A stretch of DNA of 64,000 bases, taken from a virus. Lineage: Duplodnaviria; Heunggongvirae; Uroviricota; Caudoviricetes. Shown piece after piece: positions 17,311 to 30,247 of this stretch. A program made the position numbers and the translations under genes. How positions within the stretch are numbered: position 1 is the first letter of the stretch; each line of letters begins with the position of its first letter. Location of the stretch: IMG/VR virus record IMGVR_UViG_3300028920_001939; one strand, given 5' to 3'. The notes beneath the pieces are model-generated. The model searched no databases. It was not told where the DNA came from and saw only the letters and a program-made list of their open reading frames with translations.

Positions 17311-17562
17311 ATGAAAACTAGATTCGGATTTATAGATCCAGGCGCCATAATGGGTGTAGTAGTCTCTCTAATCATTCTAGCAGTCGGTGTTTTCGCGTTC
17401 TACGTCACCATTACAGAAATTCCACACGACGACACTAACATCTGGGACAAAGTCAACAACACATCTGACACAGCTGACTCTGTTTTCAACATTATAGGTA
17501 TAGTGTTGATAATTGGAGCAATTATGTCTATCGTTGGTCTTGTCTATAACTACGTACGTTAG
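17311..17562 (+). CDS. Small 2-TM protein, probably abundant structural or membrane protein (paralogue A)
   Basis: MKTRFGFIDPGAIMGVVVSLIIL... with two TM helices. Strong SD. Tandem paralogue follows. Confidence 0.6.
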   Translation: MKTRFGFIDPGAIMGVVVSLIILAVGVFAFYVTITEIPHDDTNIWDKVNNTSDTADSVFNIIGIVLIIGAIMSIVGLVYNYVR

Positions 17563-17865: not shown

Positions 17866-17878
17866 ATATAACAACCGT

Positions 17879-17914
17879 GGAGGCATTTTGCCTCCTACCT
17901 TTTATCTTTTATTT
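17879..17914 (+). terminator. Hairpin plus oligo-T terminator after the paralogue pair
   Basis: ggaggc-atttt-gcctcc stem-loop immediately followed by taccttttatcttttattt. Confidence 0.5.
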
Positions 17915-17934: not shown

Positions 17935-18228
17935 ATGGATAATTTGCCTAATGTGATTTTGATATTATCAGTATCATTAATGATTTTTGCTGTTGGTTTC
18001 TTTGCTTTTTTTTATGTTTATACCGAATTAGAATACTCAACTGAACAGATTGAGAGTTTTGCTGTTACAGATCCCACAACGGATGAAACTGTAACATTAT
18101 CAGATTTACCCACAAGTATCACTCTCGTTGAGCAGTATAATGGTTTTGAATGGAAGGAGATTCCATCGGCTGGTTATACGCAAAACGAAAATCAAGTTAC
18201 AGTTGATAGTGCTTATTTGGAGGGTTAG
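17935..18228 (+). CDS. N-terminally anchored small protein
   Basis: One N-terminal TM helix then an acidic, Thr-rich ectodomain. Confidence 0.45.
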   Translation: MDNLPNVILILSVSLMIFAVGFFAFFYVYTELEYSTEQIESFAVTDPTTDETVTLSDLPTSITLVEQYNGFEWKEIPSAGYTQNENQVTVDSAYLEG

Positions 18229-18246: not shown

Positions 18247-19530
18247 ATGTCAAGAAAGATGAAAAAATTTTTAAGAGATACTAAAGCTAGAATGTTGCCG
18301 TATTCTGTAATATTTTTGTTGATAATAGCAGGTTTAACAAGTATGTTTTTTGTTTTGCCTGGAAATAAATTTGTGAGAGCTCTTAGTGAACATTCAGATG
18401 ATTTTGAGGATGATACACCAGGACAATGGCCCGATGAAGATTGGTATATTTTAAGTATTGATAATATAAATGTAGGAGATAGAAATGTAACAGATTCTAC
18501 ATCTTATGATGGTTCTAATTGTTTGTTAGTTAATTATTCAGATCCAGATAATAATGGACATATGTTTTTTAATACAACTTCTGAGAATGAAAAATGGAGT
18601 AATTTTTCTTTTTGGTTTTATGCGGAAGCTGATAACAACGATTTTTCTACTTGGTATAGTAATGGAACAAATGGTAGTGCTGGTTCTTTTGCTAGTGTAA
18701 GAATAGGATGCACTGGAATAGGTGGTGGTGATGCAGAATCTATTTCTATTAAAGGAGGAGGAGGAGAAGAAATTACTGATATAGACTATACTTTTGAAGA
18801 ATGGTGGTTTTTTAAAGTTAGTTTTAATTGGACAGATGAAACATTTTCAGTACATATACATAACGATACTCAAGAAAATAATACAGAGTGGTTTACCTTT
18901 ATTTACTCTGTTTCAGAAGGAGGAGCTAATCCATTTTTAGGAAGATATCATTTTACAAATCCTAAAGGTAAAGTTACTAACATCTATCTTGATAATATGC
19001 AATTTAATGGAACAACTTCTGGAGCTGCACAAGGAGAAATATGTTATTATAATTATACAGGTCTTGATGAAAGTAATAGAACCACATTTGGCTCTGGAAC
19101 TCCTGGTGATACACTTTATTCTAATGCTACAGCTAATTGGAATACTGGTGCTATGCTTACAATTGAAATTTCTGTTAATGATACTGTTTATGTTGAAGAT
19201 GTATGTATTGATTTTGCTGAAACAGATTTACATACATCAGTTCATTGGGAAAACATCAGTATATCTGTAGATTTAGATAATTCTACTTGGCATGCTTTTG
19301 CAGCCGTAACAGATATAGATCAAGGAGGAGATGCTTCCAATATTAGTTTGAATACTTCTTGGGCTAGTATATGTTCAGATGGCAATCCATTTCCAATATC
19401 AAATACATCTGTAGGTGTTGATGATTATATTTATGTTCTTTTTAAACTTGACTTGCCAGATGATGCAGAAACAGGAGGTCCTTATACAACTGATTCTTGG
19501 AATATTTTATGGAAAACAGTAGAATCGTGA
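18247..19530 (+). CDS. Secreted or signal-anchored glycoprotein
   Basis: N-terminal hydrophobic anchor. Many N-x-S/T sequons (NVTD, NYSD, NTTS, NFSF, NGTN...). Confidence 0.65.
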   Translation: MSRKMKKFLRDTKARMLPYSVIFLLIIAGLTSMFFVLPGNKFVRALSEHSDDFEDDTPGQWPDEDWYILSIDNINVGDRNVTDSTSYDGSNCLLVNYSDPDNNGHMFFNTTSENEKWSNFSFWFYAEADNNDFSTWYSNGTNGSAGSFASVRIGCTGIGGGDAESISIKGGGGEEITDIDYTFEEWWFFKVSFNWTDETFSVHIHNDTQENNTEWFTFIYSVSEGGANPFLGRYHFTNPKGKVTNIYLDNMQFNGTTSGAAQGEICYYNYTGLDESNRTTFGSGTPGDTLYSNATANWNTGAMLTIEISVNDTVYVEDVCIDFAETDLHTSVHWENISISVDLDNSTWHAFAAVTDIDQGGDASNISLNTSWASICSDGNPFPISNTSVGVDDYIYVLFKLDLPDDAETGGPYTTDSWNILWKTVES

Positions 19531-19573
19531 TTTATATGATGAAATCTATAATATAAAGAGTGGAGATAAATAT

Positions 19574-21469
19574 ATGAAGAACAAAGAAGTAATAATAATT
19601 GTTTCTTTATTTATAACTTTATGTTTACTCGTAGGAACAATTACACCGCCTTATTCTTTTGAAGAAACTGTTTCTGAAAATACAGCAACTATTAACTGGA
19701 TAGATGGAAATCAATCTCAAGAAAATCGTTCTTACTTTACTGGTTATCTTATTTATGTATCATATATTGCAGAGGATAACGCAACATATGTTGTAACATC
19801 AAATGATGATGATGATTCAACGGTACAAGCTTTTTATCATAATAATTGTACTTGGTCTGAACTATATACAGTTGATGAGGGAATACCTGCTGTTGGTGAT
19901 TCTGGTGCTACACCAAGGCAAGTAATTAAAGATAATGAAGGATATTATCATATTTTGTATCATGTACATAATGGTTGGGGTGGCTTATACAAGAGTGTAG
20001 GACAAAACATTAGTGAGTGGGGAGAATATGAACAGTTCGGTGCTAATGATGGTTCTAACTATGAACATATATATACTGATGATGGAGATTGGTATATTTT
20101 TTACAGAACAGGTGGAGGCGCAAATAGGCCCTATCATTATAGATTATCTACCGATAATGGAGATAATTGGGGAGCAGAAACGACAATTTTTGATTTTGAT
20201 GATACTACAACACAAGAACAGTATGTTCATGGTATAAGATATGATCCAGAAAATAACTATATACACTTTTCTTGGTGCCAACAATCACATGGTTTAGGAG
20301 GCGCAAGACACGGAATGTGGTATGCTTATTGGCTTTTAACTAATCATTCATTTTGGGACGTAGAAGGGAAATATATAACAGATACTACTCTTAATCATGC
20401 AAATACCAATTATACTCCTTGTAAGTTATTTGGTACTGGTTTTTATACAGAAGCAGGTGGACCTATAGTTAATTCAGGATTTTTAGGAATAGATGAGAAT
20501 AATTATCCATGGGTTGAATTTACAGCTGATTATGACCAATCTGTTGAAACAGAAGATGATTGGGGTAACTATGTGGTTCATTGGGATGGAGATGAATGGA
20601 TACAAGATATTGTATTCAATCAAAGTTATGATGGACATAGTGCTATTAGAAATTGTGGTGCTTTGTATGTACATAATAACTCAAGTATAGACTATTGGGC
20701 TATAGATGGAAATACTGTTGATGATAATGGCGCATATCCAGGAAATGTTACTCACTATTATTATGATGGAGAAGATTGGATTTTTCAAGGTGAATTAGCC
20801 AATTTATCTACTTGGGGAGCACATTTTAATTTTAACATAGGAAGGTATGGAATGAGCACCTTTAATAGTTCTGATGATTTCTCTGGTTGGTGGAATGTTG
20901 CTGTAATAGCTTTTGAGCAAGATGATAATGATGCTTATTATATATATTCTCCTGTTGGTGGATATTTATGTAGTGGAAATAATCAATTATATACTCTTGT
21001 AAGATACTCAGATTCTGATAATATCACAACGATAAATGATGGTTATTCAGCGTATAATGATTCAGGTAATTCTTACACTTTTACTGGGTTAGATAGTGGT
21101 ACTACTTATTATTATAGTGCTTGGTCATTTACTGTAAATGAGGGATATAGTGAAATGGAAGAGGGAACATTTACTACAGAAGGGGAACAAAATACAGATG
21201 TAACAATTTCATCTATAAACAATCAAGAAAATAATACAATTGCAAAAAATAGAAGTAGATGTTTTAATTGGTCAAAAGTTAGTAATGCAATATCTTATCA
21301 AATAAGAATATCAAATACATCTAATTTCGTTACTACTTTCTTAAATATGAGTGTTACTGAAGAAGATTATAGTGTTGTTGGCGGTTATATAGAATATAAT
21401 TTACCATATCAATATAATATAAGTTGGAACGCATATCATTATTATCAGGTAAGAGCATATTTGGCTTAA
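19574..21469 (+). CDS. Secreted glycoprotein with C-terminal FN3-like domain
   Basis: Signal peptide. Sequon-rich. FN3-like ...YTFTGLDSGTTYYYSAWSF shared with neighbouring genes. Confidence 0.7.
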   Translation: MKNKEVIIIVSLFITLCLLVGTITPPYSFEETVSENTATINWIDGNQSQENRSYFTGYLIYVSYIAEDNATYVVTSNDDDDSTVQAFYHNNCTWSELYTVDEGIPAVGDSGATPRQVIKDNEGYYHILYHVHNGWGGLYKSVGQNISEWGEYEQFGANDGSNYEHIYTDDGDWYIFYRTGGGANRPYHYRLSTDNGDNWGAETTIFDFDDTTTQEQYVHGIRYDPENNYIHFSWCQQSHGLGGARHGMWYAYWLLTNHSFWDVEGKYITDTTLNHANTNYTPCKLFGTGFYTEAGGPIVNSGFLGIDENNYPWVEFTADYDQSVETEDDWGNYVVHWDGDEWIQDIVFNQSYDGHSAIRNCGALYVHNNSSIDYWAIDGNTVDDNGAYPGNVTHYYYDGEDWIFQGELANLSTWGAHFNFNIGRYGMSTFNSSDDFSGWWNVAVIAFEQDDNDAYYIYSPVGGYLCSGNNQLYTLVRYSDSDNITTINDGYSAYNDSGNSYTFTGLDSGTTYYYSAWSFTVNEGYSEMEEGTFTTEGEQNTDVTISSINNQENNTIAKNRSRCFNWSKVSNAISYQIRISNTSNFVTTFLNMSVTEEDYSVVGGYIEYNLPYQYNISWNAYHYYQVRAYLA

Positions 21470-21487
21470 AGGAGATATAAAATAAAA

Positions 21488-23596
21488 ATGAAAAATAATA
21501 AAAAGATTGTATGGTTCATTCTTGGTATTCTATTATTTTCAACTATCAATCTTTTTTATATAAATTCTTCCAAAGCGGATGGAGAAAGTTGGCTTACTGG
21601 TTGGACTTATCGAAAGGAGATAACAGTTAGCAATAAGATAGCTGATTATGCTACTATGATTAATGTTACAAAATCATCTGGCGGTGATGTAGATTGTGAA
21701 GGACATTGTAATGATAATTTTAGTGATTTGCGTTTTACACAAAGCGATGGAGAAACATTGATACCTCATTGGATTGATGAATTGGAGTATAGTAGTGGAA
21801 GTTATGCACATGTTTGGGTAAATAATACAAATGATGAAGCTACTCTTTATATGTATTATGGTAATGTTGGTGCAACAAGTACAAGTAGTGGAGATGATAC
21901 ATTTATAGTTTTTAGTTCATTTGAAAATGAATATGATGATGGATGGTCTTTGGATCAAGGTGGTGGTGGGTTTACAGATGTTACAAGTAGAGATGGTAGT
22001 TATTCTGTTGATTTATATGATAATGGTGCTGATGCGTGGTGTGTTCTTAATAGAGCAATTGATTTTGATTTTACATTAAATTGTTGGCTTTATATGGCTG
22101 ATGCTAATGCTGTTTGTCATATACGTTTTTGGGATACTTCTGGTGACCCTCCAGATGCAAATCTTATGTATGGTATTAGATTTGAAGATGATTTGTTGCG
22201 TGTATATGGCGATGTTGGTTATGATGCATATACACCTCATCACAATGAAGATAGTTGGTATTTTTTTGTTTTTGATGTTGATATTTCTGCTAATGATGTT
22301 TGGATGAAATACCGAGAAGATGGTAGTGATACTTGGTCTTATTATAATACAACTGCTTGGTCAGAAGGAAGTGCTGTAACAACATCTGAATTTTGGTTTA
22401 TGAGTGGTTATAATTCTCAACATGCATATTTTGATGCTTTCGTTTTAAAACCTTGGACTACTGGTACTGAACCAAGTTTCAGTTTCGGAAGTGAGGAAAC
22501 AGAGGGACCTGGTTGGACTAATTCTAATCCTTCGATTACTGCAGATAGTGAAAATCCTCCTGATACACAAACAGATGTAACAACATTACTTGCAAATTTC
22601 TATAATCATTTCAATATCAGCGTAACAGATGATGATAACACAAATCAATCTATCAATGTTACTTGGAGAGCTATAGTAGATAGTGAATGGAAAGATATTG
22701 GTTCTAATGCATCTTCAGAATGTAATTCTACCTTTTATTGTAATAATGTTAGTTGGATAGATAGTTATAATACTGAATATACTTGGAGTGTTAATGTATC
22801 AGATAACTGTACTTCTGGTAAAGGGTGGTCTAATCAAACATTTACTTTTACAACAATAGATTATACACCTGATGCACCGACCATTACAGGGGCAACTGCT
22901 GATAGTCCATCACAAATCACAATCACTTGGACAGATGATGATGAGGCAGATTCTACATACATTGAATGGGATTCTCAAAATGATGATAGTTGGAATCGTG
23001 GCGACCATAACGATACAACTATTAATGCAACATCTGGTTCTGAATCACATACAGGTTTATCATCTGGAACAACATATTATTATAAAGCGTGGTCTTGGAA
23101 TGCTTCGCAAGCAATTTGGAGTTCAGGTTCAAATATTGTTAGTGCTAAAACTCGTGGTTTAGTTTGGCACTCTAAAACATTTGGTGGTAGTGTTACTGTA
23201 ACAGGCGGTGAAGCAATAGATTGTGAATTAAATTCGACTAACTGGATTATAGGTGAGTTAGGAGTAGGAAATTCTGCTGTAAAGAATTTCAAATTCTGGC
23301 AGAATGGTACTGCTAATATAGATGTAGAAATCGGTGTAAGCAATATCAATTTTACATTTGTTAATTACACTGATTGGGATGCAAGTGGTTTCAATCAATT
23401 TTGCGCTAACTTTACAAACGACAGCTGGGTAACTGAAACGAATATACTTACAAGTCCATTCAATGGTACACTTAAATATAATTTTGCCCCAGGCAATTTT
23501 GATTTTGGTGTACGTATTTGGATGCCGAAAACTATGAGTGTTGAAAGTAAGAGAGAAGATTTCGAGGTGATTTTAACTGTTACAGAGCATACATGA
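21488..23596 (+). CDS. Secreted glycoprotein, DUF2341-like N-terminus plus FN3
   Basis: Signal peptide (SKA/DGE). WLTGWTYRKEITV resembles the DUF2341 hallmark. FN3 (...HTGLSSGTTYYYKAWSW). WHSKTFGGSVTV motif shared with the 25415 gene. Confidence 0.7.
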   Translation: MKNNKKIVWFILGILLFSTINLFYINSSKADGESWLTGWTYRKEITVSNKIADYATMINVTKSSGGDVDCEGHCNDNFSDLRFTQSDGETLIPHWIDELEYSSGSYAHVWVNNTNDEATLYMYYGNVGATSTSSGDDTFIVFSSFENEYDDGWSLDQGGGGFTDVTSRDGSYSVDLYDNGADAWCVLNRAIDFDFTLNCWLYMADANAVCHIRFWDTSGDPPDANLMYGIRFEDDLLRVYGDVGYDAYTPHHNEDSWYFFVFDVDISANDVWMKYREDGSDTWSYYNTTAWSEGSAVTTSEFWFMSGYNSQHAYFDAFVLKPWTTGTEPSFSFGSEETEGPGWTNSNPSITADSENPPDTQTDVTTLLANFYNHFNISVTDDDNTNQSINVTWRAIVDSEWKDIGSNASSECNSTFYCNNVSWIDSYNTEYTWSVNVSDNCTSGKGWSNQTFTFTTIDYTPDAPTITGATADSPSQITITWTDDDEADSTYIEWDSQNDDSWNRGDHNDTTINATSGSESHTGLSSGTTYYYKAWSWNASQAIWSSGSNIVSAKTRGLVWHSKTFGGSVTVTGGEAIDCELNSTNWIIGELGVGNSAVKNFKFWQNGTANIDVEIGVSNINFTFVNYTDWDASGFNQFCANFTNDSWVTETNILTSPFNGTLKYNFAPGNFDFGVRIWMPKTMSVESKREDFEVILTVTEHT

Positions 23597-23662
23597 AAAT
23601 AACGGGCAGGACGGCAATAGAAAAATCCTATCTTGTGGGGTAGTTGAAGAGGTGAAGAGCAT

Positions 23663-24157
23663 ATGAAAAACAAAATTGTGGTATTACTGGTCGTATCTGC
23701 TGTATTCGGTATGCTTGCTGCCCCTATAGGGTTTGCAAGTGATACAACAGTTACAGGTACATTCACAGCAACTGCATCATTAGATGTTGATGTAAACAGA
23801 TCTACAGCAGCATTTGGTACTATAACTGTAAGTGATCACTTTACTGTACCATTTAAATTAGTTAATAATGGTACTGTTGCTGCTGATGTAACTCAAGACC
23901 AAGCAGTAAAAGACAGCGGTGATATGACTATCGGAACCAATGGATCTCTAGCACAAGACGAGTATAGCGTTGTAATGAATGTATCAGAAGTTTGGACAGA
24001 TATAGGACAAAACGATAATACAGAAATAGCAGATGGATTAGCAGCATCCGGGGAAAAAGGTTATAATATAACAGTTTACATTGGTCCCTCGTTAAGTGCA
24101 GAATCACATGCAGATGAACAATTTAGCATAGATGTTACTGTAGCGGCTGATACATAA
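23663..24157 (+). CDS. Small secreted Thr/Val-rich protein
   Basis: Signal peptide (GFA/SD); 164 aa. Confidence 0.6.
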   Translation: MKNKIVVLLVVSAVFGMLAAPIGFASDTTVTGTFTATASLDVDVNRSTAAFGTITVSDHFTVPFKLVNNGTVAADVTQDQAVKDSGDMTIGTNGSLAQDEYSVVMNVSEVWTDIGQNDNTEIADGLAASGEKGYNITVYIGPSLSAESHADEQFSIDVTVAADT

Positions 24158-24168
24158 GGTGATATCAC

Positions 24169-24819
24169 ATGAAACATAAAATTTGCTTGATAATGATTCT
24201 TTTGTTATCAAGCATCTTATTTATTTCTAATGCTAACGCCGTAGATATATCATTAGTGAATAGTATAGGTATACACACGTTTGATTATGATGATACAGGA
24301 AATGTGTTAATATCAAAGGGTAGTGTTCCCATTGAAAATCAAGATAAAGAGAATAGCATTCATATAACATTATCAACATCAAATGATTTACTAAATACCG
24401 ATTTAGGTCCTAACAGAGAACCAAGAAAGCATAACATAAATCAAAAAGTTTATTTTTATCCGCTTGTTGATACAAGTTGGGTAGAGTTCGAAGAAGATAG
24501 TTTCACTATTCCACCCGCTTCTGTTAGAATCGCTAATTATACTTTGGTGATACCTGTAGATGAATTGCCATCATATGTAAACGCTACAAATGGTTTCATT
24601 GGTTACATAAAGATAATTTGTGGTTCAGAACCAACTTCGGGTAGTGGAGCAAGTGTAGGAGTAAAATACACATATAAACTATTCGTAATTTTTCACGAAA
24701 CATTTCCATTTCCAATTCCATTATACTATATCATTTCTGTAATAGTGCTTTCTATTGCTTTGATATATCTAGTAATCAGATTACGAATAAAAGATAAGAA
24801 GAAATCGAAACACCTTTGA
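24169..24819 (+). CDS. Secreted protein with C-terminal TM plus basic-tail anchor
   Basis: Signal peptide (ANA/VD). C-terminus FPFPIPLYYIISVIVLSIALIYLVIRLRIKDKKKSKHL, a sortase/archaeosortase-style tripartite sorting signal. Confidence 0.6.
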   Translation: MKHKICLIMILLLSSILFISNANAVDISLVNSIGIHTFDYDDTGNVLISKGSVPIENQDKENSIHITLSTSNDLLNTDLGPNREPRKHNINQKVYFYPLVDTSWVEFEEDSFTIPPASVRIANYTLVIPVDELPSYVNATNGFIGYIKIICGSEPTSGSGASVGVKYTYKLFVIFHETFPFPIPLYYIISVIVLSIALIYLVIRLRIKDKKKSKHL

Positions 24820-25418
24820 AGGAGGTCATTAGAATTAAGAAAATTACCGTTGCGGTAATACTGATACTGATAGTATCTTTGCCTGCAACATACGCAAGTA
24901 ATGAAGTAACTTGCTCTTTCAATGCAAGTGACCCAAATTATGGGAGTAGTGCAATAATGGAATTACCTGAACCTGAAAATAAATCTTGGAGAGATACAGA
25001 TAATCATTCAATGAAAGTTAAAGTATCAAATCAATTAGGTGAAACTATGGATGTATCATTCTATTGGCATAACAATCACACTCTTATAGGCGAAGATACA
25101 GATGTAGCTAACGATACATACGCAAACGTAACTGTCGGATTTAGTTATGTAGAATATGAAAATTATACTTGGTATGTAAATGTAACTGCAACGCACTACG
25201 ATAACCAAAGTGCAAAGTGGTGGTTTAAAGGAGAAGCACACAATTGGGATATCAATAGAGATGAAGATATTAATATAGTTGATGTAACAGGAGTTACAGC
25301 ACACTATGGTGAAACAGATGAAACACCACATTGGATTAGAGCAGATTGTGCAGAAAATGGTGATATAAATATTGTTGATGTTACAACAGTAACATCGCAT
25401 TATGGAGAGTCGTATTGA
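24816..25418 (+). CDS. Secreted glycoprotein ending in a double dockerin-like Ca-binding repeat
   Basis: Signal peptide (TYA/SNE). C-terminus WDINRDEDINIVDVTGVTAHYGE...CAENGDINIVDVTTVTSHYGESY, two DxNxDxxxNxxD loops each followed by a helix. Confidence 0.65.
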   Translation: MKEVIRIKKITVAVILILIVSLPATYASNEVTCSFNASDPNYGSSAIMELPEPENKSWRDTDNHSMKVKVSNQLGETMDVSFYWHNNHTLIGEDTDVANDTYANVTVGFSYVEYENYTWYVNVTATHYDNQSAKWWFKGEAHNWDINRDEDINIVDVTGVTAHYGETDETPHWIRADCAENGDINIVDVTTVTSHYGESY

Positions 25419-26365
25419 TGAAATATGTGAAATATTTAATTGTGATATTAGGATTATTCTTTATTTTATTATTATCTTATAGTGTTAGTGCTGAATGGCA
25501 TTCTCAAAGTTTCGGTGGAAGTGTTACAGTAGAACCTTGGATTAATAGTGCCCCTACTTTTAGTGATAATTCACCATCTGGTTCAGGCATAGAATTAAAT
25601 GTAAATTTATCAGTTGTTGTTACGGATGCTAATGGGAATGAATCAACAGTTTATTGGAAGATTGATACTGATTCAAATGTGAACGATACAAGTGTTGCAC
25701 ATATCAATACTTCTATTTTGAATGAAACTGCTTATTATAATTATTCTTCTGAAGTAGATTCGTATTCTACTACTTATTATGTTGGAGTATGGGCTAATGA
25801 TACACACGACAATTCTTCTATCTATTGGAGTTTTACTACAGTTAATCAACCTGAACCTTATGTTTATGATGAATCACCAACGAACGGTTCAACAGATGAA
25901 GTAACAACAGGTATAACATTATCAATTAATGTAACAGAATATCAAGGACAAAAATTCAATATCACTTGGTCAACGAATGCAAGTGCTTGGACTGCTTATA
26001 ATTCTTCTTGTGATAATGGTACTTTTACACAAGATATAACTTGGGCTGATACTGAATCTACTAAATATTGGTGGAATGTATCTGTTAATGATACTGCTGG
26101 AAATTGGAATAATAAAACATATCATTTTACTACAGGCAGTTTTGAATGGGGAAATTGGTCTGTTTATTGGAAGTTAGGTCAAACATCAATTTATGATGTT
26201 AATCTAAATATGGGTGTGAATATTGTTGATGTTACTTCTGTTACCAGTCATTATGGAGAATCTGGTGATCCAGGGTGGATTGATCAAGATATTAATAATG
26301 ATGGTGATATTAATTATATAGATGTAAGTGGTATCGCAAACCACTTTGGAGAAGATTATACTTGA
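25415..26365 (+). CDS. Secreted glycoprotein ending in a double dockerin-like repeat
   Basis: Signal peptide (VSA/EW). C-terminus ...NLNMGVNIVDVTSVTSHYGESGDPGWIDQDINNDGDINYIDVSGIANHFGEDYT. Confidence 0.65.
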   Translation: MMKYVKYLIVILGLFFILLLSYSVSAEWHSQSFGGSVTVEPWINSAPTFSDNSPSGSGIELNVNLSVVVTDANGNESTVYWKIDTDSNVNDTSVAHINTSILNETAYYNYSSEVDSYSTTYYVGVWANDTHDNSSIYWSFTTVNQPEPYVYDESPTNGSTDEVTTGITLSINVTEYQGQKFNITWSTNASAWTAYNSSCDNGTFTQDITWADTESTKYWWNVSVNDTAGNWNNKTYHFTTGSFEWGNWSVYWKLGQTSIYDVNLNMGVNIVDVTSVTSHYGESGDPGWIDQDINNDGDINYIDVSGIANHFGEDYT

Positions 26366-27696
26366 AGAAGGTGAAAATAATGAATAAAAAATCAATAAAA
26401 ATATTGATAATATCAATAATGCTGATTTTGTCTACAATTGTTTTAACAACAACTGTAAGTGCTGATGATGAAGCTTGGGTTGTATATGTAACTCCAGAAG
26501 AACAAAGTGTTATTAATGGTTCGAGTTTCGAGATAAGTTTAACTGCAAATAACACACAAGGCGGTTCAGGATCTGCAGTTGGTGGTTGGGAGATAACTCA
26601 ACTTAACTGGACTGTTGGTTTAGCCAACATAACATCAGCTACTGAAGGTAATTGGTTGTCAGATGTTGATTCTACTTTGTTTAGTGATGGTGATTTTCAC
26701 AACGCAAGTGGAAACTTAACTGATAACTATTGTGCTATTCTTGGTACTGGAGATACATCAGTAAATGGAACAATGGTGACTTATAATTTCACTACTTTAA
26801 AAACAGGTGTTATTGAAATAACATTTTATGGTTTATTTTCTTATGGAGAAAATGAAATATGGTTTGCCGAAACTACAGGCAACATAACGGTGTATAATGA
26901 TAGTGCGCCAGAAATAGTAGATAATTCTCCTGCTACTGGGACTACTGGAGATTTTTTTCTATTCAATGTTTCTGTTACTGATGATGTTGATAGTGCGCCG
27001 GCGCTTACGGTCAAAGTGAATTGGACGCATGACCCATCTTCAAGTAACGATTCAATGGAATATCAAGGTGGAACTTACTTTGAGAAACAGATAACATTGG
27101 ATAATAGTGTTTCAGATTTAGCATATCATATATATGTTAATGATACAGTTCCAAATGCAAATTATACTGAAGAACTTACAGCAGGTGTAACAGATAATGA
27201 TAAACCATTGAATAATACTAAAGTTAATGTTAGTGAAAAGTTTATGGGAGATGTAACAAAGATATTTAGTATTGATTGGACTAATATTTCTTGTAATGTT
27301 ACAGATAACATAGCTGTAACTGGAGTATATCTTAACATAACAATAAATGGTTCAATCTATGATAATACTTCTGTTGTAGATAATAAAACAGCAGATAACA
27401 AGTATTTTAGAAATAACAGTTTTGCAACGGTTGGAACATATGTTGTATTCTTGCATTCATATGATGCTGCTTCAAACAAGAATAATACTGAAAATCAAAC
27501 TTATGAGATATTCTATAAATGGGATTTAAATCAAGATAATGATGTAAACATAGTCGATATCACTTCCATAACAGGTGTTTATGGACAAACAGGTGATAAT
27601 AGATGGATAAAACAAGATTGTGCATCTACTGGTGATGGAGATATCGACATTGTTGATATAACTACTGTAACCGCCCATTATGGCGAAACATATTAG
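26362..27696 (+). CDS. Secreted glycoprotein ending in a double dockerin-like repeat
   Basis: Signal peptide (VSA/DD). C-terminus WDLNQDNDVNIVDITSITGVYGQTGDNRWIKQDCASTGDGDIDIVDITTVTAHYGETY. Confidence 0.65.
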   Translation: MKKVKIMNKKSIKILIISIMLILSTIVLTTTVSADDEAWVVYVTPEEQSVINGSSFEISLTANNTQGGSGSAVGGWEITQLNWTVGLANITSATEGNWLSDVDSTLFSDGDFHNASGNLTDNYCAILGTGDTSVNGTMVTYNFTTLKTGVIEITFYGLFSYGENEIWFAETTGNITVYNDSAPEIVDNSPATGTTGDFFLFNVSVTDDVDSAPALTVKVNWTHDPSSSNDSMEYQGGTYFEKQITLDNSVSDLAYHIYVNDTVPNANYTEELTAGVTDNDKPLNNTKVNVSEKFMGDVTKIFSIDWTNISCNVTDNIAVTGVYLNITINGSIYDNTSVVDNKTADNKYFRNNSFATVGTYVVFLHSYDAASNKNNTENQTYEIFYKWDLNQDNDVNIVDITSITGVYGQTGDNRWIKQDCASTGDGDIDIVDITTVTAHYGETY

Positions 27697-27705
27697 GGAA
27701 TGTAA

Positions 27706-30210
27706 ATGAAGAAGAATATAAGTAAATTGATAATACTAATGCTATTGTTTAACTTACTGTTTGTAGGATTTATATCTGAAGTAAATGCTACAGGCACCAC
27801 AACTTTAGTGATAGATCCAGAGAATACAAATGTAACTATAGGTGATTCTTTTATTGTTTATATCAATGCTACAATTGATACTGATGATGATATAGGTGGA
27901 TTTGAGATAACATTTTTCAATTTTACTTCTGGTGTTGTGAATATCACTAAAGTTAATGAAGGTGATGTGTTTGACGCATATCCATCTTTATTTGATCCAG
28001 GTGATATCTATAATGATACAGGTAACGTAACAGATTCTTATGGTGCTATATTGGGAGTTGAAAATGTATCTGGTGCCAAATCTCTTGTTTATTATAATAT
28101 ATTAGCATACGGCGTAGGCGTATCACCTATCAATTTTAGTGCTGTTTTATCTTATAGTGAAAATACTTTTATTCATACTGATAGTTTTGGTAACATAACT
28201 GTTCATCCAGAATCTATTACAGGCGCAACTGCAACTAATCATTCACATAACAGAATCAATTTAACTTGGGATACGCCATTCGGGAATGGAACTGATAAAT
28301 GTGTAGTATTCGCCAATTCTACTGGAAGTGCTGCTTCAAGAAGTCCAGGTGATGAAATTTACAACGGAACAAGTGATCATTATAATCATACAGGTTTAGA
28401 TCCTAATCAACAATGGAATTATTCTTTCTGGGGTTGGAATGAAACTGCTAGATTGTATTCAATGCTATTTCAACAAGATTCTAACACAACACAAACTTCT
28501 CCAGGTACTAATACTTGGATAATTTTAGGTGATGCAACACCGGCAACTGGTTCAACTTACGCTTATAAAACATCGCAAGAAGTTAATATCACTATAATAG
28601 GCGGTTATCTTACAGATACAATACAACCTATAACACATGGAGCTTTTGGGGGAGCATCAGATGAATTGCCACATCAATATATCTGTTATATGAATATAAC
28701 ATTTGGCGCAACACAATATAATGAAACAGAAGATTATATTTTAGATAGATACAATGGTGTTGTTGATTGGTCTCCTGCTGGAGATGAACCAGCGCCTGGT
28801 GCATCTTATTCAGCAAATTACACATACATATACAATACAGATTCATCATTCAAGTATTGGATTAACACAACAGCAGGGCAAAAAACAGAATCATCTGTTA
28901 ATTCTGGTTATAAAACTTATACAATGAGTGGTCTTACAGGTGGAACTGAATGGTGGAATGTTACTGCTGTATTTGATGGGAATAAAACCCAAGGCAATTA
29001 TTCGTTTGATATCAATCGAAAACCAAGAGGCGGTGGGGATGGAGGAGATTGGAATGAGGATCCTGAAAATTCAGCGCCTTCTGTTTCTGTATCAACAGCA
29101 TTAGCAGTAGATGTTGAAGATTTAGATGGCGATACTGTAAATGTAACTTTCTATTGGCAAAACGATACTCGAATAGATAACGATACTGTTGCTGGAGCAG
29201 GAACTGCTTCTGTTAATCCTTCAACTTTAGATTACAATACAGAATACGGCTGGTATGTGATTGCTGATGATTTTACTGATACAACAAGAGGACCCACAGC
29301 TGGGTATTGGACTTTTAATACATCTTCGTTGGGTATCAATCTAACAAAAGAATGGGTTTTAAATCCTGAAAACAACACTATAAGAAGTTGGATTAATGTA
29401 ACTAATACTGGTACTGCTAACTTAACAGGCGTTAATATATGGGATAGAGAATGCCACGGCTTGAACCTTGTTAGTTATAATAATTCAGTTGATTTTTCAG
29501 GCAACGGTCATTGGAATTGGGAAGCTGCTTATCTTAACATATCAGGTTATGATAATCACACTTACAAGATAACTATGTTACATGAATATTATACACTTGT
29601 GCCTTTAGCAAATGGTAGTGAAGTTTGGAATTATGCAAACGTATCACATCTCGGTCAAACATCTGGACAGAATGTATCTGGCTACTTTGTGGGATTTACT
29701 GCAACTAAAGAAGCAAACGTATCAAAGATGAATAGCACAATACTTGATGTAACGTGGTGGATAAATATCACTAATTCAGGTGATTTCAATCTTACAAATG
29801 TAACAGTAAACGAAACCTATGATGATTTTATCAATTATACAAGTAGTAATGTTGATCCTTTTGATGAATCTAATGTTACGTTTGTTATACCATTTATTAA
29901 GCCAAGTGAAACATTTAGTTTAATGGTTAATATATCTGCGACACCTAACTCAATAACTAATGGTTCAACAGTTTATAACAATATCACTATACGTTCTGAC
30001 CAGTTAGAAGAACAAACATTTAGTGAATCTTTGAGTTATGGTGGACGTACTGAAACTTTGAGAATTACATACGACACGACCTTGACCGATGTATCAGTAT
30101 ATGGAGATTCGTTGGTAATTATAATAGGCGTATTACTAACAATCTCTGCTTTGCTGATAGTAGTTGGATTGTTGTATAAATTCGGTTATCTCGGGAGAGG
30201 TGAGCAATAG
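27706..30210 (+). CDS. Large secreted glycoprotein (834 aa) with FN3 and C-terminal TM anchor
   Basis: Signal peptide (VNA/TG). FN3 (...NHTGLDPNQQWNYSFWGW). Many sequons. C-terminal TM LVIIIGVLLTISALLIVVGLLYKFGYLGRGEQ. Confidence 0.7.
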   Translation: MKKNISKLIILMLLFNLLFVGFISEVNATGTTTLVIDPENTNVTIGDSFIVYINATIDTDDDIGGFEITFFNFTSGVVNITKVNEGDVFDAYPSLFDPGDIYNDTGNVTDSYGAILGVENVSGAKSLVYYNILAYGVGVSPINFSAVLSYSENTFIHTDSFGNITVHPESITGATATNHSHNRINLTWDTPFGNGTDKCVVFANSTGSAASRSPGDEIYNGTSDHYNHTGLDPNQQWNYSFWGWNETARLYSMLFQQDSNTTQTSPGTNTWIILGDATPATGSTYAYKTSQEVNITIIGGYLTDTIQPITHGAFGGASDELPHQYICYMNITFGATQYNETEDYILDRYNGVVDWSPAGDEPAPGASYSANYTYIYNTDSSFKYWINTTAGQKTESSVNSGYKTYTMSGLTGGTEWWNVTAVFDGNKTQGNYSFDINRKPRGGGDGGDWNEDPENSAPSVSVSTALAVDVEDLDGDTVNVTFYWQNDTRIDNDTVAGAGTASVNPSTLDYNTEYGWYVIADDFTDTTRGPTAGYWTFNTSSLGINLTKEWVLNPENNTIRSWINVTNTGTANLTGVNIWDRECHGLNLVSYNNSVDFSGNGHWNWEAAYLNISGYDNHTYKITMLHEYYTLVPLANGSEVWNYANVSHLGQTSGQNVSGYFVGFTATKEANVSKMNSTILDVTWWINITNSGDFNLTNVTVNETYDDFINYTSSNVDPFDESNVTFVIPFIKPSETFSLMVNISATPNSITNGSTVYNNITIRSDQLEEQTFSESLSYGGRTETLRITYDTTLTDVSVYGDSLVIIIGVLLTISALLIVVGLLYKFGYLGRGEQ

Positions 30211-30223: not shown

Positions 30224-30247
30224 GTGGTCTCTCGAAAGAGGGACCAC
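30224..30247 (+). terminator. Stem-loop with GAAA tetraloop after the glycoprotein block
   Basis: gtggtctctc-GAAA-gagggaccac lies 14 nt after the stop of the 27706-30210 gene. No clear oligo-T follows. Confidence 0.3.

What the first reader, a model, noticed from the sequence alone, without database searches (positions are those of the whole stretch)
18247..30210. Nine back-to-back Sec-exported, sequon-saturated glycoprotein genes with shuffled FN3 modules
Every gene from 18247 to 30210, and also 11992-15753, begins with a positively charged N-terminus, a hydrophobic core and an AxA-type cleavage site (e.g. SKA/DGE, ANA/VD, VSA/DD). All are packed with N-x-S/T sequons. A recurring FN3-like module (...Y-N-G-T...Y.HTGL..GTTYYYSAWSF) appears in 11992, 19574, 21488 and 27706, indicating domain shuffling within the element. 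This is a large investment in surface-exposed glycoproteins for a 64-kb segment. They could be envelope or virion decoration, host-surface remodelling, or adhesion and superinfection-exclusion factors.
Basis: seen in the sequence. Interest (0 to 1): 0.6.

Follow-up and report, generated by a model that had tools for sequence, protein, structure and literature searches.

The report
Archaeal virus adhesin cluster with cohesin–dockerin
The nine genes really do encode exported proteins packed with N-glycosylation sites, and they most likely form the host-attachment module of a ~101-kb circular archaeal virus-like element, apparently snapped together by cohesin–dockerin "plug and socket" domains that I could not find reported in an archaeal virus.

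Summary
All nine genes (18247-30210) and 11992 begin with signal-peptide-like N-termini. Pooled, they carry 230 N-x-S/T sequons against 90±8 expected from composition; only 24169 is not enriched. FN3 modules recur at 26-40% identity.

1. The element is a complete circular ~100.9-kb archaeal replicon with RFC, PriL-like, XPF and Cas4-like genes.
2. Just upstream lie two paralogous 83/96-aa two-helix proteins. Their helices are nearly invariant and their loop carries a sequon. The family has ≥625 members in metagenomes and looks like a spindle-virus capsid protein. Downstream is an ATPase homologous to PAV1 ORF375.
3. 11992, 26362 and 27706 start with cohesin domains, and 24816, 25415 and 26362 end in dockerins.

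The C-terminal anchor of 27706 copies capsid-protein helix 2.

Best reading (about 0.55): a fast-evolving virion adhesin module. Capsid-lattice-anchored scaffolds recruit dockerin-tagged binding modules, all glycosylated by the host.

Caveats:
- No significant match to a known spindle capsid protein.
- 29 kb of the genome was not seen.
- No binding or virion data exist.

Verdict: new variant of a known kind; interest 0.66.

The parts
17256..17264 (+). Archaeal TATA-like box CTTTATATA, 47 nt upstream of the first capsid-like gene. Candidate promoter of the structural operon.
   Evidence: The same CTTTATAAA motif lies upstream of 40423 and 41508. The count alone is not above chance (7 found, 4.9 expected), so this is an inference from position.
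17311..17562 (+). Capsid-like protein paralog 1 (83 aa): two hydrophobic helices joined by a loop that carries N-x-S/T.
   Evidence: It is 72% identical to 17575 by BLAST and 83% over aligned columns.
17575..17865 (+). Capsid-like protein paralog 2 (96 aa). Candidate major capsid protein of spindle-virus type.
   Evidence: At least 625 homologs at about 60-80% identity. Helices are nearly invariant; the loop is hypervariable but keeps a sequon. The AF2 model is a helical hairpin, H10-36 and H52-95, pLDDT 75. phrog_16261 'virion structural protein' is hit at E=2.3e-4, and by 12 of 28 family members, best 2.2e-6. There is no significant match to SSV1, His1 or PAV1 capsid proteins.
17877..17898 (+). 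Hairpin followed by T-runs after the capsid-like genes. Possible attenuator.
   Evidence: z=-2.1. Modest support.
17935..18228 (+). 97-aa protein whose N-terminal helix resembles capsid-protein helix 1, followed by an acidic domain.
   Evidence: hmmsearch with the capsid-family profile gives iE 4.2e-7 over profile positions 10-46. Smith-Waterman z=10.8 against shuffles. It is conserved in the distant relative L009 at 40%.
18247..19530 (+). Gene 1 (427 aa): long n-region plus a TM segment (signal anchor or signal peptide), 19 sequons, no recognised domain.
   Evidence: There is only a weak, collinear BLAST hit to His1 ORF27 (E=0.086).
19574..21469 (+). Gene 2 (631 aa): N-terminal TM segment, BNR_4 beta-propeller (19754-20605), FN3 (about 20957-21136).
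   Evidence: Pfam BNR_4 E=2.7e-11, 43.8 bits against a cutoff of 27.3. FN3 alignment.
21488..23596 (+). Gene 3 (702 aa): signal peptide (SKA/DG), DUF2341 (21716-21934), FN3-like module (about 22868-23125).
   Evidence: Pfam DUF2341 E=1.9e-16. Relatives carry DUF2341 with Laminin_G_3. The L001 ortholog is 1747 aa with extra PQQ/FG-GAP propeller repeats.
23663..24157 (+). Gene 4 (164 aa): signal peptide (GFA/SD), small secreted protein, no anchor found.
   Evidence: It is 53% identical to its L001 ortholog.
24169..24819 (+). Gene 5 (216 aa): signal peptide (ANA/VD), C-terminal TM segment and basic tail. Not sequon-enriched.
24816..25418 (+). Gene 6 (200 aa): signal peptide, a module of about 110 aa, and a C-terminal dockerin (25236-25415).
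   Evidence: Pfam Dockerin_1 E=1.4e-3. Profile A1 matches solved dockerins: 2b59_B at 3e-6, 5k39_B at 9e-6. HMM coordinates.
25415..26365 (+). Gene 7 (315/316 aa): signal peptide (VSA/EW), Ig-like modules, C-terminal dockerin (26183-26359).
   Evidence: The start is probably ATG 25418.
26362..27696 (+). Gene 8 (438/444 aa), an adaptor: signal peptide (VSA/DD), N-terminal cohesin (26467-26898), Ig-like modules, C-terminal dockerin (27511-27693).
   Evidence: Cohesin: profile A3 found 2775 proteins, and 8 of 10 sampled carry Pfam Cohesin; where both best stretches can be compared (5 proteins) they fall on the same residues. The AF2 model has pLDDT 87, and its top 15 Foldseek PDB hits are cohesins, with 6kgc_A at E=4.7e-6 and TM 0.69. 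Dockerin.
27706..30210 (+). Gene 9 (834 aa), an anchored scaffold or adhesin: signal peptide (VNA/TG), cohesin (27793-28212), FN3 (about 28207-28449), DUF4815 phage tail-fibre domain (28618-28914), CLIPPER/DUF11 (29698-30009), and a C-terminal anchor resembling capsid-protein helix 2 (30058-30183).
   Evidence: Pfam. tblastn matches to phage 'adsorption associated tail protein' genes. Cohesin HMM. Anchor: Smith-Waterman z=10.1 with 0 of 1000 shuffles as good, and hmmsearch iE 2.9e-5. Orthologs at 59-70% identity.
30224..30247 (+). Strong hairpin immediately after gene 9. Likely end of the transcription unit.
   Evidence: -22.2 kcal/mol, z=-4.2, 0 of 200 shuffles fold as well.
11992..15753 (+). 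Upstream partner (1252/1253 aa): signal peptide (VRA/DD), cohesin (12073-12501), propeller-like repeats, two FN3 modules (13513-13746 and 14119-14376), C-terminal multi-TM anchor (15544-15729).
   Evidence: The C-terminal half is conserved at 34% in the distant relative L009.
39067..39942 (+). P-loop ATPase of the morphogenetic module, homologous to PAV1 ORF375.
   Evidence: tblastn E=5e-7 over 83% of the query. It hits phrog_22963 at E=1.3e-17, and PAV1 ORF375 belongs to that family at 8.7e-196. It is 87% identical to its L001 ortholog.

Best explanation
The nine genes, together with 11992 and 17935, are the host-attachment (adhesin) module of a large circular archaeal virus-like element. Its particle is probably built from small two-helix hydrophobic capsid proteins of the spindle-virus type.

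Proposed mechanism:
1. The genes are expressed as part of the structural gene block that starts at the capsid-like genes.
2. The products enter the host membrane through Sec.
3. The host oligosaccharyltransferase N-glycosylates them heavily on the outer face.
4. Two of them serve as anchored scaffolds. 27706 is held by a C-terminal helix that copies capsid-protein helix 2, so it can sit in the capsid lattice. 11992 is held by a multi-TM C-terminus.
5. Each scaffold carries a cohesin at its outer tip. The dockerin-tagged proteins 24816, 25415 and 26362 plug into these cohesins. 26362 has its own cohesin and can extend or branch the assembly.
6. The remaining proteins add glycan-binding or glycan-cleaving heads: a BNR_4 propeller, DUF2341/LamG-like modules, a DUF4815 tail-fibre domain and Ig/FN3 spacers.

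The result would be a modular, exchangeable receptor-binding complex that diverges quickly between related elements.

Shown: the signal-like N-termini, the sequon selection, the domain identities, the gene order, the circular replicon, the helix similarity and the variability between relatives.

Inferred: incorporation into virions, cohesin-dockerin pairing within the set, the Sec and AglB steps, and spindle morphology.
For: Export and glycosylation signals.

Dockerins. Profile A1 matches solved type II dockerins (E=3e-6). The repeats keep duplicated D-x-N-x-D-x-x-x-N-x-x-D calcium loops.

Cohesins. The profile reaches Pfam Cohesin proteins, at the same residues where the best stretches can be compared. 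The confident AF2 model's top 15 PDB matches are cohesins. The window holds exactly three cohesins and three dockerins, and the close relative L001 holds the orthologous set.

Capsid context.
- Two tandem 83/96-aa two-helix genes sit 400 nt upstream. They belong to a highly conserved family of at least 625 clusters with a sequon-bearing loop.
- 12 of 28 family members hit phrog_16261, 'virion structural protein'.
- The family profile's best-scoring segments in SSV1 and PAV1 are their capsid genes. In His1 the capsid gene ranks second. None of these scores is significant.

ATPase. It is homologous to PAV1 ORF375.

Gene order. Capsid genes, then small TM proteins, then signal-peptide/TM glycoproteins, then a conserved block, then the ATPase. 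This mirrors His1, PAV1 and Wyrdviridae (10.1101/2021.07.29.453957).

Lattice anchoring.
- The tail of 27706 matches capsid helix 2, and the head of 17935 matches helix 1.
- In relatives, seven distinct glycoproteins of 535-1351 aa end in the same helix.
- Two proteins of about 490 aa are a capsid protein with about 380 aa inserted in the loop.

Tail-fibre link. 27706 has a DUF4815 domain shared with phage adsorption proteins.

Variability. Cluster proteins are 50-70% identical to L001 orthologs and show domain gains and losses. The downstream block is 68-90% identical, mostly 79-90%. In 27 of 29 relatives with enough sequence, the capsid genes are followed by large sequon-rich proteins.

Replicon. 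It is circular, about 100,856 bp, with archaeal replication genes.
Against: - No statistically significant sequence or fold match links the two-helix protein to any characterised spindle capsid protein. I could not determine which viruses make up phrog_16261.
- About 29 kb of the 100.9-kb genome was not seen. A HK97 capsid, portal and terminase set is therefore not excluded.
- Three IMG/VR scans found no relatives.
- A genome of 101 kb is larger than any spindle-shaped virus genome described in the papers I read (largest 72.6 kb, PMC9894754).
- Within ±10 kb of the capsid gene, cohesins appear in only 3 of 80 relatives. My narrow dockerin profile found none. The docking system is therefore not a family-wide requirement.
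- 18247, 19574, 21488 and 23663 have no recognised way of attaching.
- There are no expression, proteomic or binding data.
Confidence: 0.55

Rival explanations
1. Host-surface remodelling by a non-viral extrachromosomal element, such as a large plasmid, a Borg-like element or a plasmid carried in vesicles. The proteins would be displayed on the host cell envelope or on membrane vesicles, organised by cohesin-dockerin as in cellular archaeal systems. They would change adhesion, partner contact or susceptibility to other elements. The two-helix protein would be a vesicle or membrane scaffold rather than a capsid protein.
For: - Archaeal cells such as ANME and Archaeoglobus use non-cellulosomal cohesin-dockerin on their surfaces (PMC9012536).
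- The viral cohesins are close to cellular ones from Thermoplasmatota and Promethearchaeota MAGs.
- No known capsid homology reaches significance.
- The element is absent from IMG/VR.
- It is large and has its own replication genes.
Against: - The ATPase is homologous to that of the spindle virus PAV1.
- The gene order matches spindle-virus morphogenetic modules.
- The two-helix protein is extremely conserved, and its helices are grafted onto adhesins. This fits a repeating lattice better than a plain membrane.
- 27706 has a DUF4815 tail-fibre domain.
- Tandem repeats are few (four short arrays) and there is no Borg-like repeat load.
Confidence: 0.2
2. Secreted or surface decoys for superinfection exclusion or receptor masking. 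The element would be a virus, but the cluster products would stay on or leave the infected cell to block the receptors used by competing viruses. They would not be built into the virion.
For: - Four of the nine proteins (18247, 19574, 21488, 23663) have no dockerin and no lattice-type anchor.
- The cluster varies strongly between relatives, as expected under an arms race.
Against: - 27706 carries a capsid-helix anchor, and the same arrangement recurs across the family.
- The cluster sits directly downstream of the capsid-like genes, with only short intergenic gaps, and is closed by one strong hairpin.
- Its position between the capsid genes and the ATPase is where spindle viruses place their adhesins.
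Confidence: 0.12
3. Tail-fibre or baseplate accessory genes of a head-tailed archaeal virus, with capsid, portal and terminase encoded in the unseen 29 kb.
For: - DUF4815 is a phage tail-fibre domain.
- Archaeal tailed viruses of about 100 kb with their own replisome genes are known (10.1101/2025.02.15.638363).
- Part of the genome was not seen.
Against: - Tail fibres of tailed viruses are assembled in the cytoplasm. From general knowledge, they lack signal peptides, TM anchors and selection for sequons.
- The Pfam and PHROG scans of the window's larger ORFs found no HK97, portal, terminase or tail gene. The same holds for the precomputed Pfam hits in the flanks I could read.
- The cluster is dominated by membrane proteins.
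Confidence: 0.05
4. An ordinary chromosomal surface-protein island of a small-genome archaeon.
For: Sequon-rich, Lys-poor secreted proteins with FN3, cohesin and dockerin domains are common in archaeal chromosomes.
Against: - The sequence closes into a circle of about 100.9 kb in two independent assemblies with different break points.
- Every credible gene in the window lies on one strand; the minus-strand ORFs listed are short and overlap plus-strand genes.
- There are no tRNA or rRNA genes.
- Most genes are orphans.
- Only one locus, in a probably misbinned contig, was found among 185,579 species genomes.
Confidence: 0.03

Closest known systems
Adhesin / end-filament modules of spindle-shaped archaeal viruses (SSV1 VP4/C792, His1 ORF26/ORF27, PAV1 ORF676/ORF678, Wyrdviridae adhesin)
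   Same: - The gene order is the same: small two-helix capsid gene(s), small TM proteins, large proteins with a signal peptide and C-terminal anchor, a conserved block, then an ATPase.
- Lectin-type and glycan-related domains are present.
- Capsid and adhesin proteins both carry N-glycosylation sequons.
- The ATPase is homologous to PAV1 ORF375.
   Different: - There are nine or ten adhesin genes (about 16 kb) instead of one to three.
- Cohesin and dockerin domains are present.
- The adhesin anchor clearly copies a capsid helix (z about 10). The equivalent comparison for SSV1 VP4 against VP1 gives only z=2.8.
- The genome is about 101 kb, against about 14-73 kb.
- No significant sequence similarity to the adhesins or capsid proteins of SSV1, His1 or PAV1 was found.
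Cellulosomes and non-cellulosomal archaeal cohesin-dockerin systems (Archaeoglobus fulgidus, ANME archaea)
   Same: - The cohesin fold and dockerin F-hand repeats are genuine.
- The logic is the same: an anchored scaffold, an adaptor carrying both domains (26362), and dockerin-tagged cargo.
   Different: - The system is encoded by a mobile, virus-like element rather than a cell.
- Each protein has a single cohesin, so there is no multi-cohesin scaffoldin.
- The cargo is small Ig-like modules, not enzymes.
- There is no carbohydrate-binding-module scaffold.
- The anchor is a capsid-like helix or TM segment, not an SLH domain or sortase signal.
Pleolipovirus spike proteins (e.g. HRPV-1 VP4). This comparison rests on my own knowledge and was not tested here.
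   Same: Type I membrane glycoproteins with a signal peptide and a C-terminal anchor, taken up from the host membrane into the particle.
   Different: - Pleolipoviruses have a single spike gene.
- Their membrane protein (VP3) is unrelated.
- Their genomes are much smaller.
- They have no cohesin-dockerin.
DUF4815 tail-fibre / adsorption proteins of tailed phages
   Same: About 100 residues of 27706 match at 51.5 bits, above the cutoff of 30. tblastn gives 34-47% identity to genes annotated as adsorption or VrlC proteins.
   Different: - Only this one domain is shared.
- The phage proteins have no signal peptide, sequon load or membrane anchor.

Membership tests
Cohesin domain (Pfam PF00963) | Sequence membership in the cohesin family | tested here: met
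   A direct Pfam scan of the window proteins gave no hit. A profile of the N-terminal domain found 2775 proteins. Eight of 10 sampled carry Pfam Cohesin above cutoff; for five of them the best stretches of both searches fall on the same residues. Membership is therefore shown transitively.
Cohesin domain (Pfam PF00963) | Nine-stranded jelly-roll beta-sandwich fold like solved cohesins | tested here: met
   The AF2 model has pLDDT 87 and pTM 0.84. Its top 15 Foldseek PDB hits are all type I or type II cohesins, with E=5e-6 to 6e-5 and TM about 0.6-0.7.
Cohesin-dockerin system | Calcium-dependent, specific binding between the cohesin and dockerin partners | not testable with these tools
   This needs recombinant binding assays or multimer modelling. 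Which of the 3x3 pairs bind is unknown.
Dockerin domain | Tandem duplicated F-hand calcium-binding loop-helix repeats of about 22 residues | tested here: met
   All three proteins have two repeats. The first loop of each has Asp/Asn at loop positions 1, 3, 5, 9 and 12, for example DINRDEDINIVD. Several second loops deviate at position 3, for example DCAENGDINIVD.
Dockerin domain | Sequence match to known dockerins | tested here: met
   The six-sequence profile matches solved dockerins: 2b59_B at 3e-6, 5k39_B at 9.4e-6, 3kcp_A at 9.7e-6. On a single sequence, Pfam Dockerin_1 scores only 19.2 bits against a cutoff of 22.9.
Cellulosome | Multi-cohesin scaffoldin carrying dockerin-borne glycoside hydrolases and a cellulose-binding module | tested here: not met
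   Each protein has one cohesin, and no hydrolase or CBM is attached to a dockerin. The system works like a cellulosome scaffold but is not one.
Spindle-shaped archaeal virus (Fuselloviridae / Halspiviridae / Thaspiviridae / Wyrdviridae type) | Capsid protein of about 80-100 aa with two hydrophobic helices and a short glycosylated loop, often as two paralogs | tested here: met
   Topology, size, tandem paralogs and a conserved sequon were all found. This is the criterion used in PMC10541130 and 10.1101/2021.07.29.453957.
Spindle-shaped archaeal virus (Fuselloviridae / Halspiviridae / Thaspiviridae / Wyrdviridae type) | Detectable homology of the capsid protein to a characterised spindle-virus capsid protein | tested here: inconclusive
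   phrog_16261 'virion structural protein' is hit by 12 of 28 members, best 2.2e-6, but its member viruses are unknown. SSV1 VP1 and VP3 belong to other PHROG families. hhalign, a PDB profile search and Foldseek found nothing significant. The known capsid genes are the top-ranked segments in SSV1 and PAV1 and the second-ranked in His1, at non-significant E-values of 0.4-4.4.
Spindle-shaped archaeal virus (Fuselloviridae / Halspiviridae / Thaspiviridae / Wyrdviridae type) | Morphogenetic ATPase shared with a known spindle virus | tested here: met
   The ATPase is homologous to PAV1 ORF375. Caveat: I did not test whether this ATPase family also occurs in plasmids.
Spindle-shaped archaeal virus (Fuselloviridae / Halspiviridae / Thaspiviridae / Wyrdviridae type) | Spindle-shaped particles | not testable with these tools
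   This needs electron microscopy of particles.
Fibronectin type III domain | Match to the FN3 profile | tested here: inconclusive
   11992 scores 24.8 bits against the cutoff of 25 (E=2.5e-5). 21488 matches the FN3-like family Pur_ac_phosph_N at E=3e-4. The five copies align with a shared Y-N-G-T...TGL..TTYYY.AW motif. They are very likely FN3, but each sits just under the curated cutoff.
Sec-dependent secretory proteins | Tripartite signal peptide with a (-3,-1) small-residue cleavage site | tested here: met
   My own rule-based scan flags all ten proteins, and eight have an AxA-type site. 17 of 72 window ORFs are flagged in total, and ten of those are the cluster proteins. SignalP and DeepTMHMM were not available.
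Archaeal N-glycoproteins | Selection for N-x-S/T beyond what composition predicts | tested here: met
   230 sequons against 90±7.6 expected. The reversed motif occurs 87 times. Relatives show the same enrichment. Actual glycan attachment cannot be tested here.
Borg-like extrachromosomal elements | Linear genome with long terminal inverted repeats and pervasive tandem repeats | tested here: not met
   The genome map is circular. The window has only 4 short tandem arrays in 64 kb.

The most novel reading that the evidence does not exclude
This would be the first virus-encoded cohesin-dockerin system: a modular adhesin complex on the particles of an undescribed family of very large spindle-type archaeal viruses. 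The family shows up on contigs of about 60-183 kb; related RFC genes lie on contigs up to 232 kb. Receptor-binding modules would be swapped by plug-and-socket docking, and adhesins would be grafted into the capsid lattice through copied capsid helices.

A sharper version: the viral cohesins are close relatives of cellular scaffoldin cohesins from Thermoplasmatota and Asgard MAGs. The virus may therefore dock directly into the host's own cohesin-dockerin surface network and use it as its receptor.
Probability: 0.35. Interest if true: 0.85.

Novelty: new variant of a known kind. Interest (0 to 1): 0.66.

Why it matters
If the reading is right, three things follow.

1. Cohesin-dockerin docking is best known from cellulosomes and from a few archaeal cell surfaces. 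It would also be used to assemble a virus attachment apparatus. That gives a simple physical route to swapping host range. It also gives a testable 3x3 binding matrix.

2. Copying a capsid helix onto the end of an adhesin, or inserting a whole ectodomain into the capsid loop in relatives, shows how spindle-type lattices can display large proteins. This question remains open for these viruses.

3. The two-helix protein family has at least 625 sequence clusters. They come from metagenomes that include Ace Lake, Salton Sea and Aarhus Bay type samples (sample names from my own recollection). Three scans of IMG/VR with proteins of this element found no relatives. The family may therefore mark a widespread group of large archaeal viruses that current pipelines miss.

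Tried and rejected
Searches that found nothing:
- Exact-protein look-ups for 21488, P0001, the methyltransferase and ORF1.
- Three IMG/VR scans, with 21488, 9057 and the ATPase.
- A metagenome scan with ORF1.
- The PDB profile search with the cohesin alignment. The fold search and the transitive Pfam route were needed instead.

Capsid protein. tblastn against phages found no match. hhalign against SSV1, His1 and PAV1 capsid proteins gave a probability below 1%. The PDB profile search hit only GPCR-type TM noise. Foldseek of the hairpin model gave E>4. I had guessed that phrog_16261 was the SSV1 VP1 family or contained PAV1 ORF121. Both guesses were wrong.

Adhesins. BLAST of His1, PAV1 and SSV1 adhesins and membrane proteins against the window gave only the ATPase link. 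Pfam on ten excised sub-domains added nothing.

Host. The scan of species genomes found one probably misbinned Dehalococcoidales contig. A contig encoding a close cellular cohesin was too short to be useful. The named relatives of RFC are only 37-40% identical and taxonomically mixed. The host remains unknown.

Rejected readings:
- Borg-like element: few tandem repeats and a circular map.
- Chromosomal island: circular closure, no tRNA genes and no Rfam matches.

Other. The TATA-like motif is not enriched overall. The 23597-23662 spacer has no significant structure.

Full report
**1. The observation**

The window is 32% G+C, and every credible gene lies on the + strand. From 18247 to 30210 there are nine ORFs separated by -4 to 66 nt.

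Each of them, and 11992-15753, starts with a net-positive n-region and a 12-20-residue hydrophobic core. 18247 has a long n-region with VRA/LS only at residue 45. 19574 has no AxA site. Both may be signal anchors. This rests on my own rule-based scan, because SignalP was not available.

Sequon saturation is real and is not a by-product of Asn-rich composition.
- The ten proteins carry 230 N-x-S/T in 5187 aa. Shuffling each protein's own residues gives 90.0±7.6, with a maximum of 114 in 1000 shuffles.
- The mirror motif [ST]-x-N occurs 87 times, N-P-S/T three times, and 48% of all Asn sit in sequons.
- Per-protein z-scores are 3.6-11 for eight of the ten and 2.9 for 23663. Only 24169 is not enriched, with 2 sequons and z=0.

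The cluster proteins have 2-9% Lys+Arg. Most of the rest of the window has 10-26%.

The FN3 module is present in 11992 (twice), 19574, 21488 and 27706, but the copies are only 26-40% identical.

Public gene calls place the starts of two genes at ATG 25418 and ATG 26380 rather than at the upstream TTG codons.

**2. What the element is**

The window encodes archaeal-type replication and repair proteins:
- RFC small subunit (54743)
- a PriL-like protein (52920)
- an XPF/ERCC4-HhH nuclease (54087)
- a Cas4-like nuclease (56887)

It also encodes a MoxR ATPase with a VWA partner, a Band-7 protein, a Zn-peptidase and a DNA methyltransferase. There are no tRNA genes, no Rfam matches and only four short tandem repeats.

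An identical element exists as a 101,246-bp ENA contig and a 100,983-bp JGI contig. In the ENA contig the gene at window 17575 lies at position 69,999, and the RFC gene at window 54743 lies at position 6,311. The window therefore runs across the ends of that contig. The map is circular with a period of about 100,856 bp. The first ORF of the window is the 3' part of a 1573-aa gene.

This is a complete autonomous replicon, not a chromosomal island. About 29 kb of it could not be fetched.

The closest named RFC homologs are only 37-40% identical (Thermoplasmatales, Nanohaloarchaea, Pacearchaeota, Halobacteria). An unnamed clade at 44-85% identity sits on contigs of up to 232 kb. The host remains unknown.

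**3. The neighbours that give the cluster its meaning**

*Capsid-like genes.* Immediately upstream lie 17311-17562 and 17575-17865. They are paralogs, 72% identical by BLAST, of 83 and 96 aa. Each has two hydrophobic helices.
- The family is large: at least 625 clusters, with the listed hits about 50-80% identical to the query.
- The two helices are almost invariant. The connecting loop is hypervariable but keeps an N-x-S/T just before helix 2.
- AF2 gives a helical hairpin.

Size, topology, sequon and tandem paralogs are the features used in the literature to recognise capsid proteins of spindle-shaped archaeal viruses.

Direct homology evidence is weak.
- 12 of 28 family members hit phrog_16261, 'virion structural protein', with a best E of 2.2e-6. 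I could not find out which viruses make up that family. SSV1 VP1 and VP3 and PAV1 ORF121 are not in it.
- hhalign, the PDB profile search, Foldseek and tblastn found nothing significant.
- Among 382 translated segments of SSV1, His1 and PAV1, the family profile's best-scoring segments in SSV1 and PAV1 are their known capsid genes. In His1 the capsid gene ranks second. The E-values are non-significant, at 0.4-4.4.

*ATPase.* Downstream, 39067-39942 is a P-loop ATPase homologous to ORF375 of the spindle virus PAV1. tblastn gives E=5e-7. Both proteins fall in phrog_22963, at 1.3e-17 and 8.7e-196.

*Gene order.* The order is: capsid genes, small TM proteins, signal-peptide/TM glycoproteins, a conserved block (35594-39067), then the ATPase. 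It matches His1 (ORF21, then ORF23-25, then ORF26/27), PAV1 (ORF121, then ORF676/678 lectins, then ORF375) and the published description of Wyrdviridae.

*Transcription signals.* A TATA-like box lies 47 nt before the first capsid gene. A hairpin with T-runs follows the second capsid gene. A strong hairpin (-22.2 kcal/mol, z=-4.2) follows gene 9. That these delimit one transcription unit is an inference.

**4. What is inside the cluster**

*Dockerins.* The C-termini of 24816, 25415 and 26362 are dockerins. Each has two repeats with Asp/Asn at the calcium-binding positions. A six-sequence profile matches solved type II dockerins: 2b59_B at 3e-6, 5k39_B at 9e-6.

*Cohesins.* The first 140 or so mature residues of 11992, 26362 and 27706 are cohesins. 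Pfam and a PDB sequence profile did not see this. A profile search of 1.84 billion representative proteins found 2775 relatives. Eight of ten sampled carry Pfam Cohesin; where the best stretches of both searches can be compared, they fall on the same residues. A confident AF2 model (pLDDT 87) has cohesins as its top 15 PDB matches.

The window therefore holds three cohesins and three dockerins, and the close relative L001 has the orthologous set.
- 27706 and 11992 are membrane-anchored at their C-termini.
- 26362 has both domains, as an adaptor would.
- 24816 and 25415 are small dockerin-tagged proteins.

*Other domains*:
- BNR_4 propeller in 19574
- DUF2341 in 21488; relatives add Laminin_G_3
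- DUF4815 in 27706, shared with phage adsorption and tail proteins
- CLIPPER/DUF11 in 27706
- a recurring Ig-like module

18247, 23663 and 24169 remain unassigned.

**5. Link to the capsid lattice**

The last 40 or so residues of 27706 align in register with capsid-protein helix 2:

GDSLVIIIGVLLTISALLIVVGLLYKF against GDSVFNIIGIVLIIGAIMSIVGLVYNY

The Smith-Waterman z-score is 10.1, and none of 1000 composition-preserving shuffles scores as well. Orthologs give z=9.7-13. The TM segments of Band-7, 15750, 16202 and 11992 do not match, and that of 24169 only marginally (z=2.8). hmmsearch with the family profile gives iE 2.9e-5.

The N-terminus of 17935 matches helix 1 (iE 4e-7). A segment of 37558 matches helix 2.

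Across 80 related JGI loci the pattern recurs. Seven distinct glycoproteins of 535-1351 aa end in the helix within 3-7 residues of the C-terminus, with iE down to 2e-11. Two proteins of about 490 aa are helix 1, an insert of about 380 aa, then helix 2. In other words, they are a capsid protein with an ectodomain in its outward loop.

This is the strongest argument that the glycoproteins are built into the same assembly as the two-helix protein, rather than merely exported.

**6. Comparative behaviour**

In the syntenic relative L001, the cluster proteins are 50-70% identical to those of the window and show large domain gains and losses. The 21488 ortholog is 1747 aa and the 26362 ortholog is 635 aa. 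The downstream block and ATPase are 68-90% identical, mostly 79-90%.

In the distant relative L009, on a 183-kb contig, the conserved set is 11699, the C-terminal half of 11992, 15750, 16202, 16885, the capsid genes and 17935. The nine downstream genes share only isolated domains.

In 27 of 29 relatives with at least 3 kb downstream of the capsid genes, those genes are followed by large, Lys/Arg-poor proteins with hydrophobic N-termini and 3-8 sequons per 100 aa.

Cohesins occur in only 3 of 80 loci within ±10 kb, and my narrow dockerin profile found none. The docking system is therefore specific to this lineage.

A conserved core with a hypervariable, modular periphery is what is expected of a host-recognition module.

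**7. Mechanism, with shown and inferred steps marked**

Shown: the export-type N-termini, the selection for sequons, the domain identities, the anchors, the gene order and the variability.

Inferred:
- translocation through Sec and glycosylation by the host's AglB-type enzyme;
- insertion of 27706 into the capsid lattice through the copied helix, and of 11992 through its TM bundle;
- docking of 24816, 25415 and 26362 onto the cohesins;
- a role in adsorption to a glycosylated host surface.

I put about 0.55 on this whole picture. For its parts:

| Claim | Confidence |
|---|---|
| Exported glycoproteins | about 0.9 |
| Genuine cohesin and dockerin domains | about 0.95 |
| Circular archaeal mobile element | about 0.95 |
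| Spindle-type virus | about 0.6 |
| Docking within the set | about 0.5 |

**8. Rivals**

- *Surface remodelling by a non-viral element or vesicle-forming plasmid (0.2).* This is supported by the lack of significant capsid homology and by the cellular use of cohesin-dockerin in archaea.
- *Decoys or superinfection exclusion (0.12).*
- *Tail fibres of a head-tailed virus whose capsid genes lie in the unseen 29 kb (0.05).*
- *Chromosomal island (0.03).* This is effectively excluded by the circular closure.

**9. Comparison with what is known, and novelty**

Functionally this is the adhesin module of a spindle-type archaeal virus. It differs in four ways: its size of nine to ten genes, the cohesin-dockerin architecture, the explicit capsid-helix anchors, and the genome of about 101 kb.

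Full-text searches for dockerin or cohesin together with archaeal viruses returned no paper. That library is incomplete, so prior description cannot be excluded.

It is not a cellulosome: there is no multi-cohesin scaffoldin and there are no enzymes on dockerins. It is not Borg-like.

I classify it as a new variant of a known kind. The most novel reading is a virus-encoded docking system that may even plug into the host's own cohesin-dockerin network. The closest named cellular cohesins come from Thermoplasmatota and Promethearchaeota MAGs.

Noticed in passing
window 1-64000 (whole element): The element is a complete circular genome of about 100,856 bp. Two independent assemblies (ENA 101,246 bp, JGI 100,983 bp) break the circle at different points, and the window spans the ENA contig junction near window position 48,432.
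   Followed up: yes
window 22-3045: The first ORF is cut by the window edge. In the public contig it is a 1573-aa, very basic, Ser/Thr/Gly/Lys-rich protein with an HELTH metallopeptidase-like motif and no database match. It might be an internal or DNA-associated virion protein.
   Followed up: partly
window 4887, 6846, 33018, 33454, 34148, 34399, 34659, 34952, 35259 (DNA repeat family D1): Nine genes begin with the same N-terminal motif of about 20 aa, (K)RLG[LM]EKEF..W, followed by unrelated small domains. Seven of them form a tandem array at 33.0-35.3 kb. Function unknown. The array varies between relatives.
   Followed up: partly
window 9057-11696, 30273-31073, 31074-31388, 32629-33021: Four cytoplasmic-type basic proteins share an N-terminal D-x-D-G-D-x(3-8)-D-C-x-P motif, which resembles a thrombospondin type 3 calcium-binding repeat. 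It is also present in the distant relative L009. Function unknown.
   Followed up: no
L054 8440-9918 and L070 12666-14114 (related JGI loci): Proteins of about 490 aa consist of capsid-protein helix 1, an insert of about 380 aa and capsid-protein helix 2. They are a capsid protein with an ectodomain displayed in its loop.
   Followed up: partly
window 37558-38130 and 36901-37416: Membrane proteins of the conserved block upstream of the ATPase also contain a segment resembling capsid helix 2 (iE 4.9e-6 for 37558, 0.15 for 36901). They may be assembly or lattice-associated factors.
   Followed up: partly
window 41436-41510 and 43113-43187; 40353-40407 and 46550-46604: Two pairs of conserved upstream regions (78-79% identical) contain CTTTATAAA-type TATA boxes and GGAG ribosome-binding sites. 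They lie in front of the MoxR ATPase and VWA genes, and of the Band-7 and 46604 genes. They are likely co-regulated archaeal promoters.
   Followed up: partly
window 31577-31999: The 421-nt 'gap' holds two short ORFs that encode extremely basic peptides of about 49 and 34 aa (Lys/Arg-rich). They are possible DNA-condensing proteins, analogous to SSV1 VP2.
   Followed up: no
window 60546-61208: A pyruvoyl-dependent decarboxylase-like protein, with matches to the HDC and PvlArgDC families. This is an unusual auxiliary gene for a virus-like element and might be involved in polyamine synthesis.
   Followed up: no
window 54743-55699 and hits P0288-P0364: The RFC small subunit belongs to an unnamed metagenomic clade at 44-85% identity, carried on contigs of up to 232 kb. 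Capsid-family contigs reach 135-183 kb. This suggests a whole group of very large related elements.
   Followed up: partly
JGI10211J14876_10000003 (loci L052, L058): A 92.9-kb contig carries the capsid-like genes at two places, near positions 9 kb and 89.5 kb, with identical downstream 762-aa and 209-aa proteins. This could be a terminal duplication, a concatemer or an assembly artefact of a circular genome.
   Followed up: no
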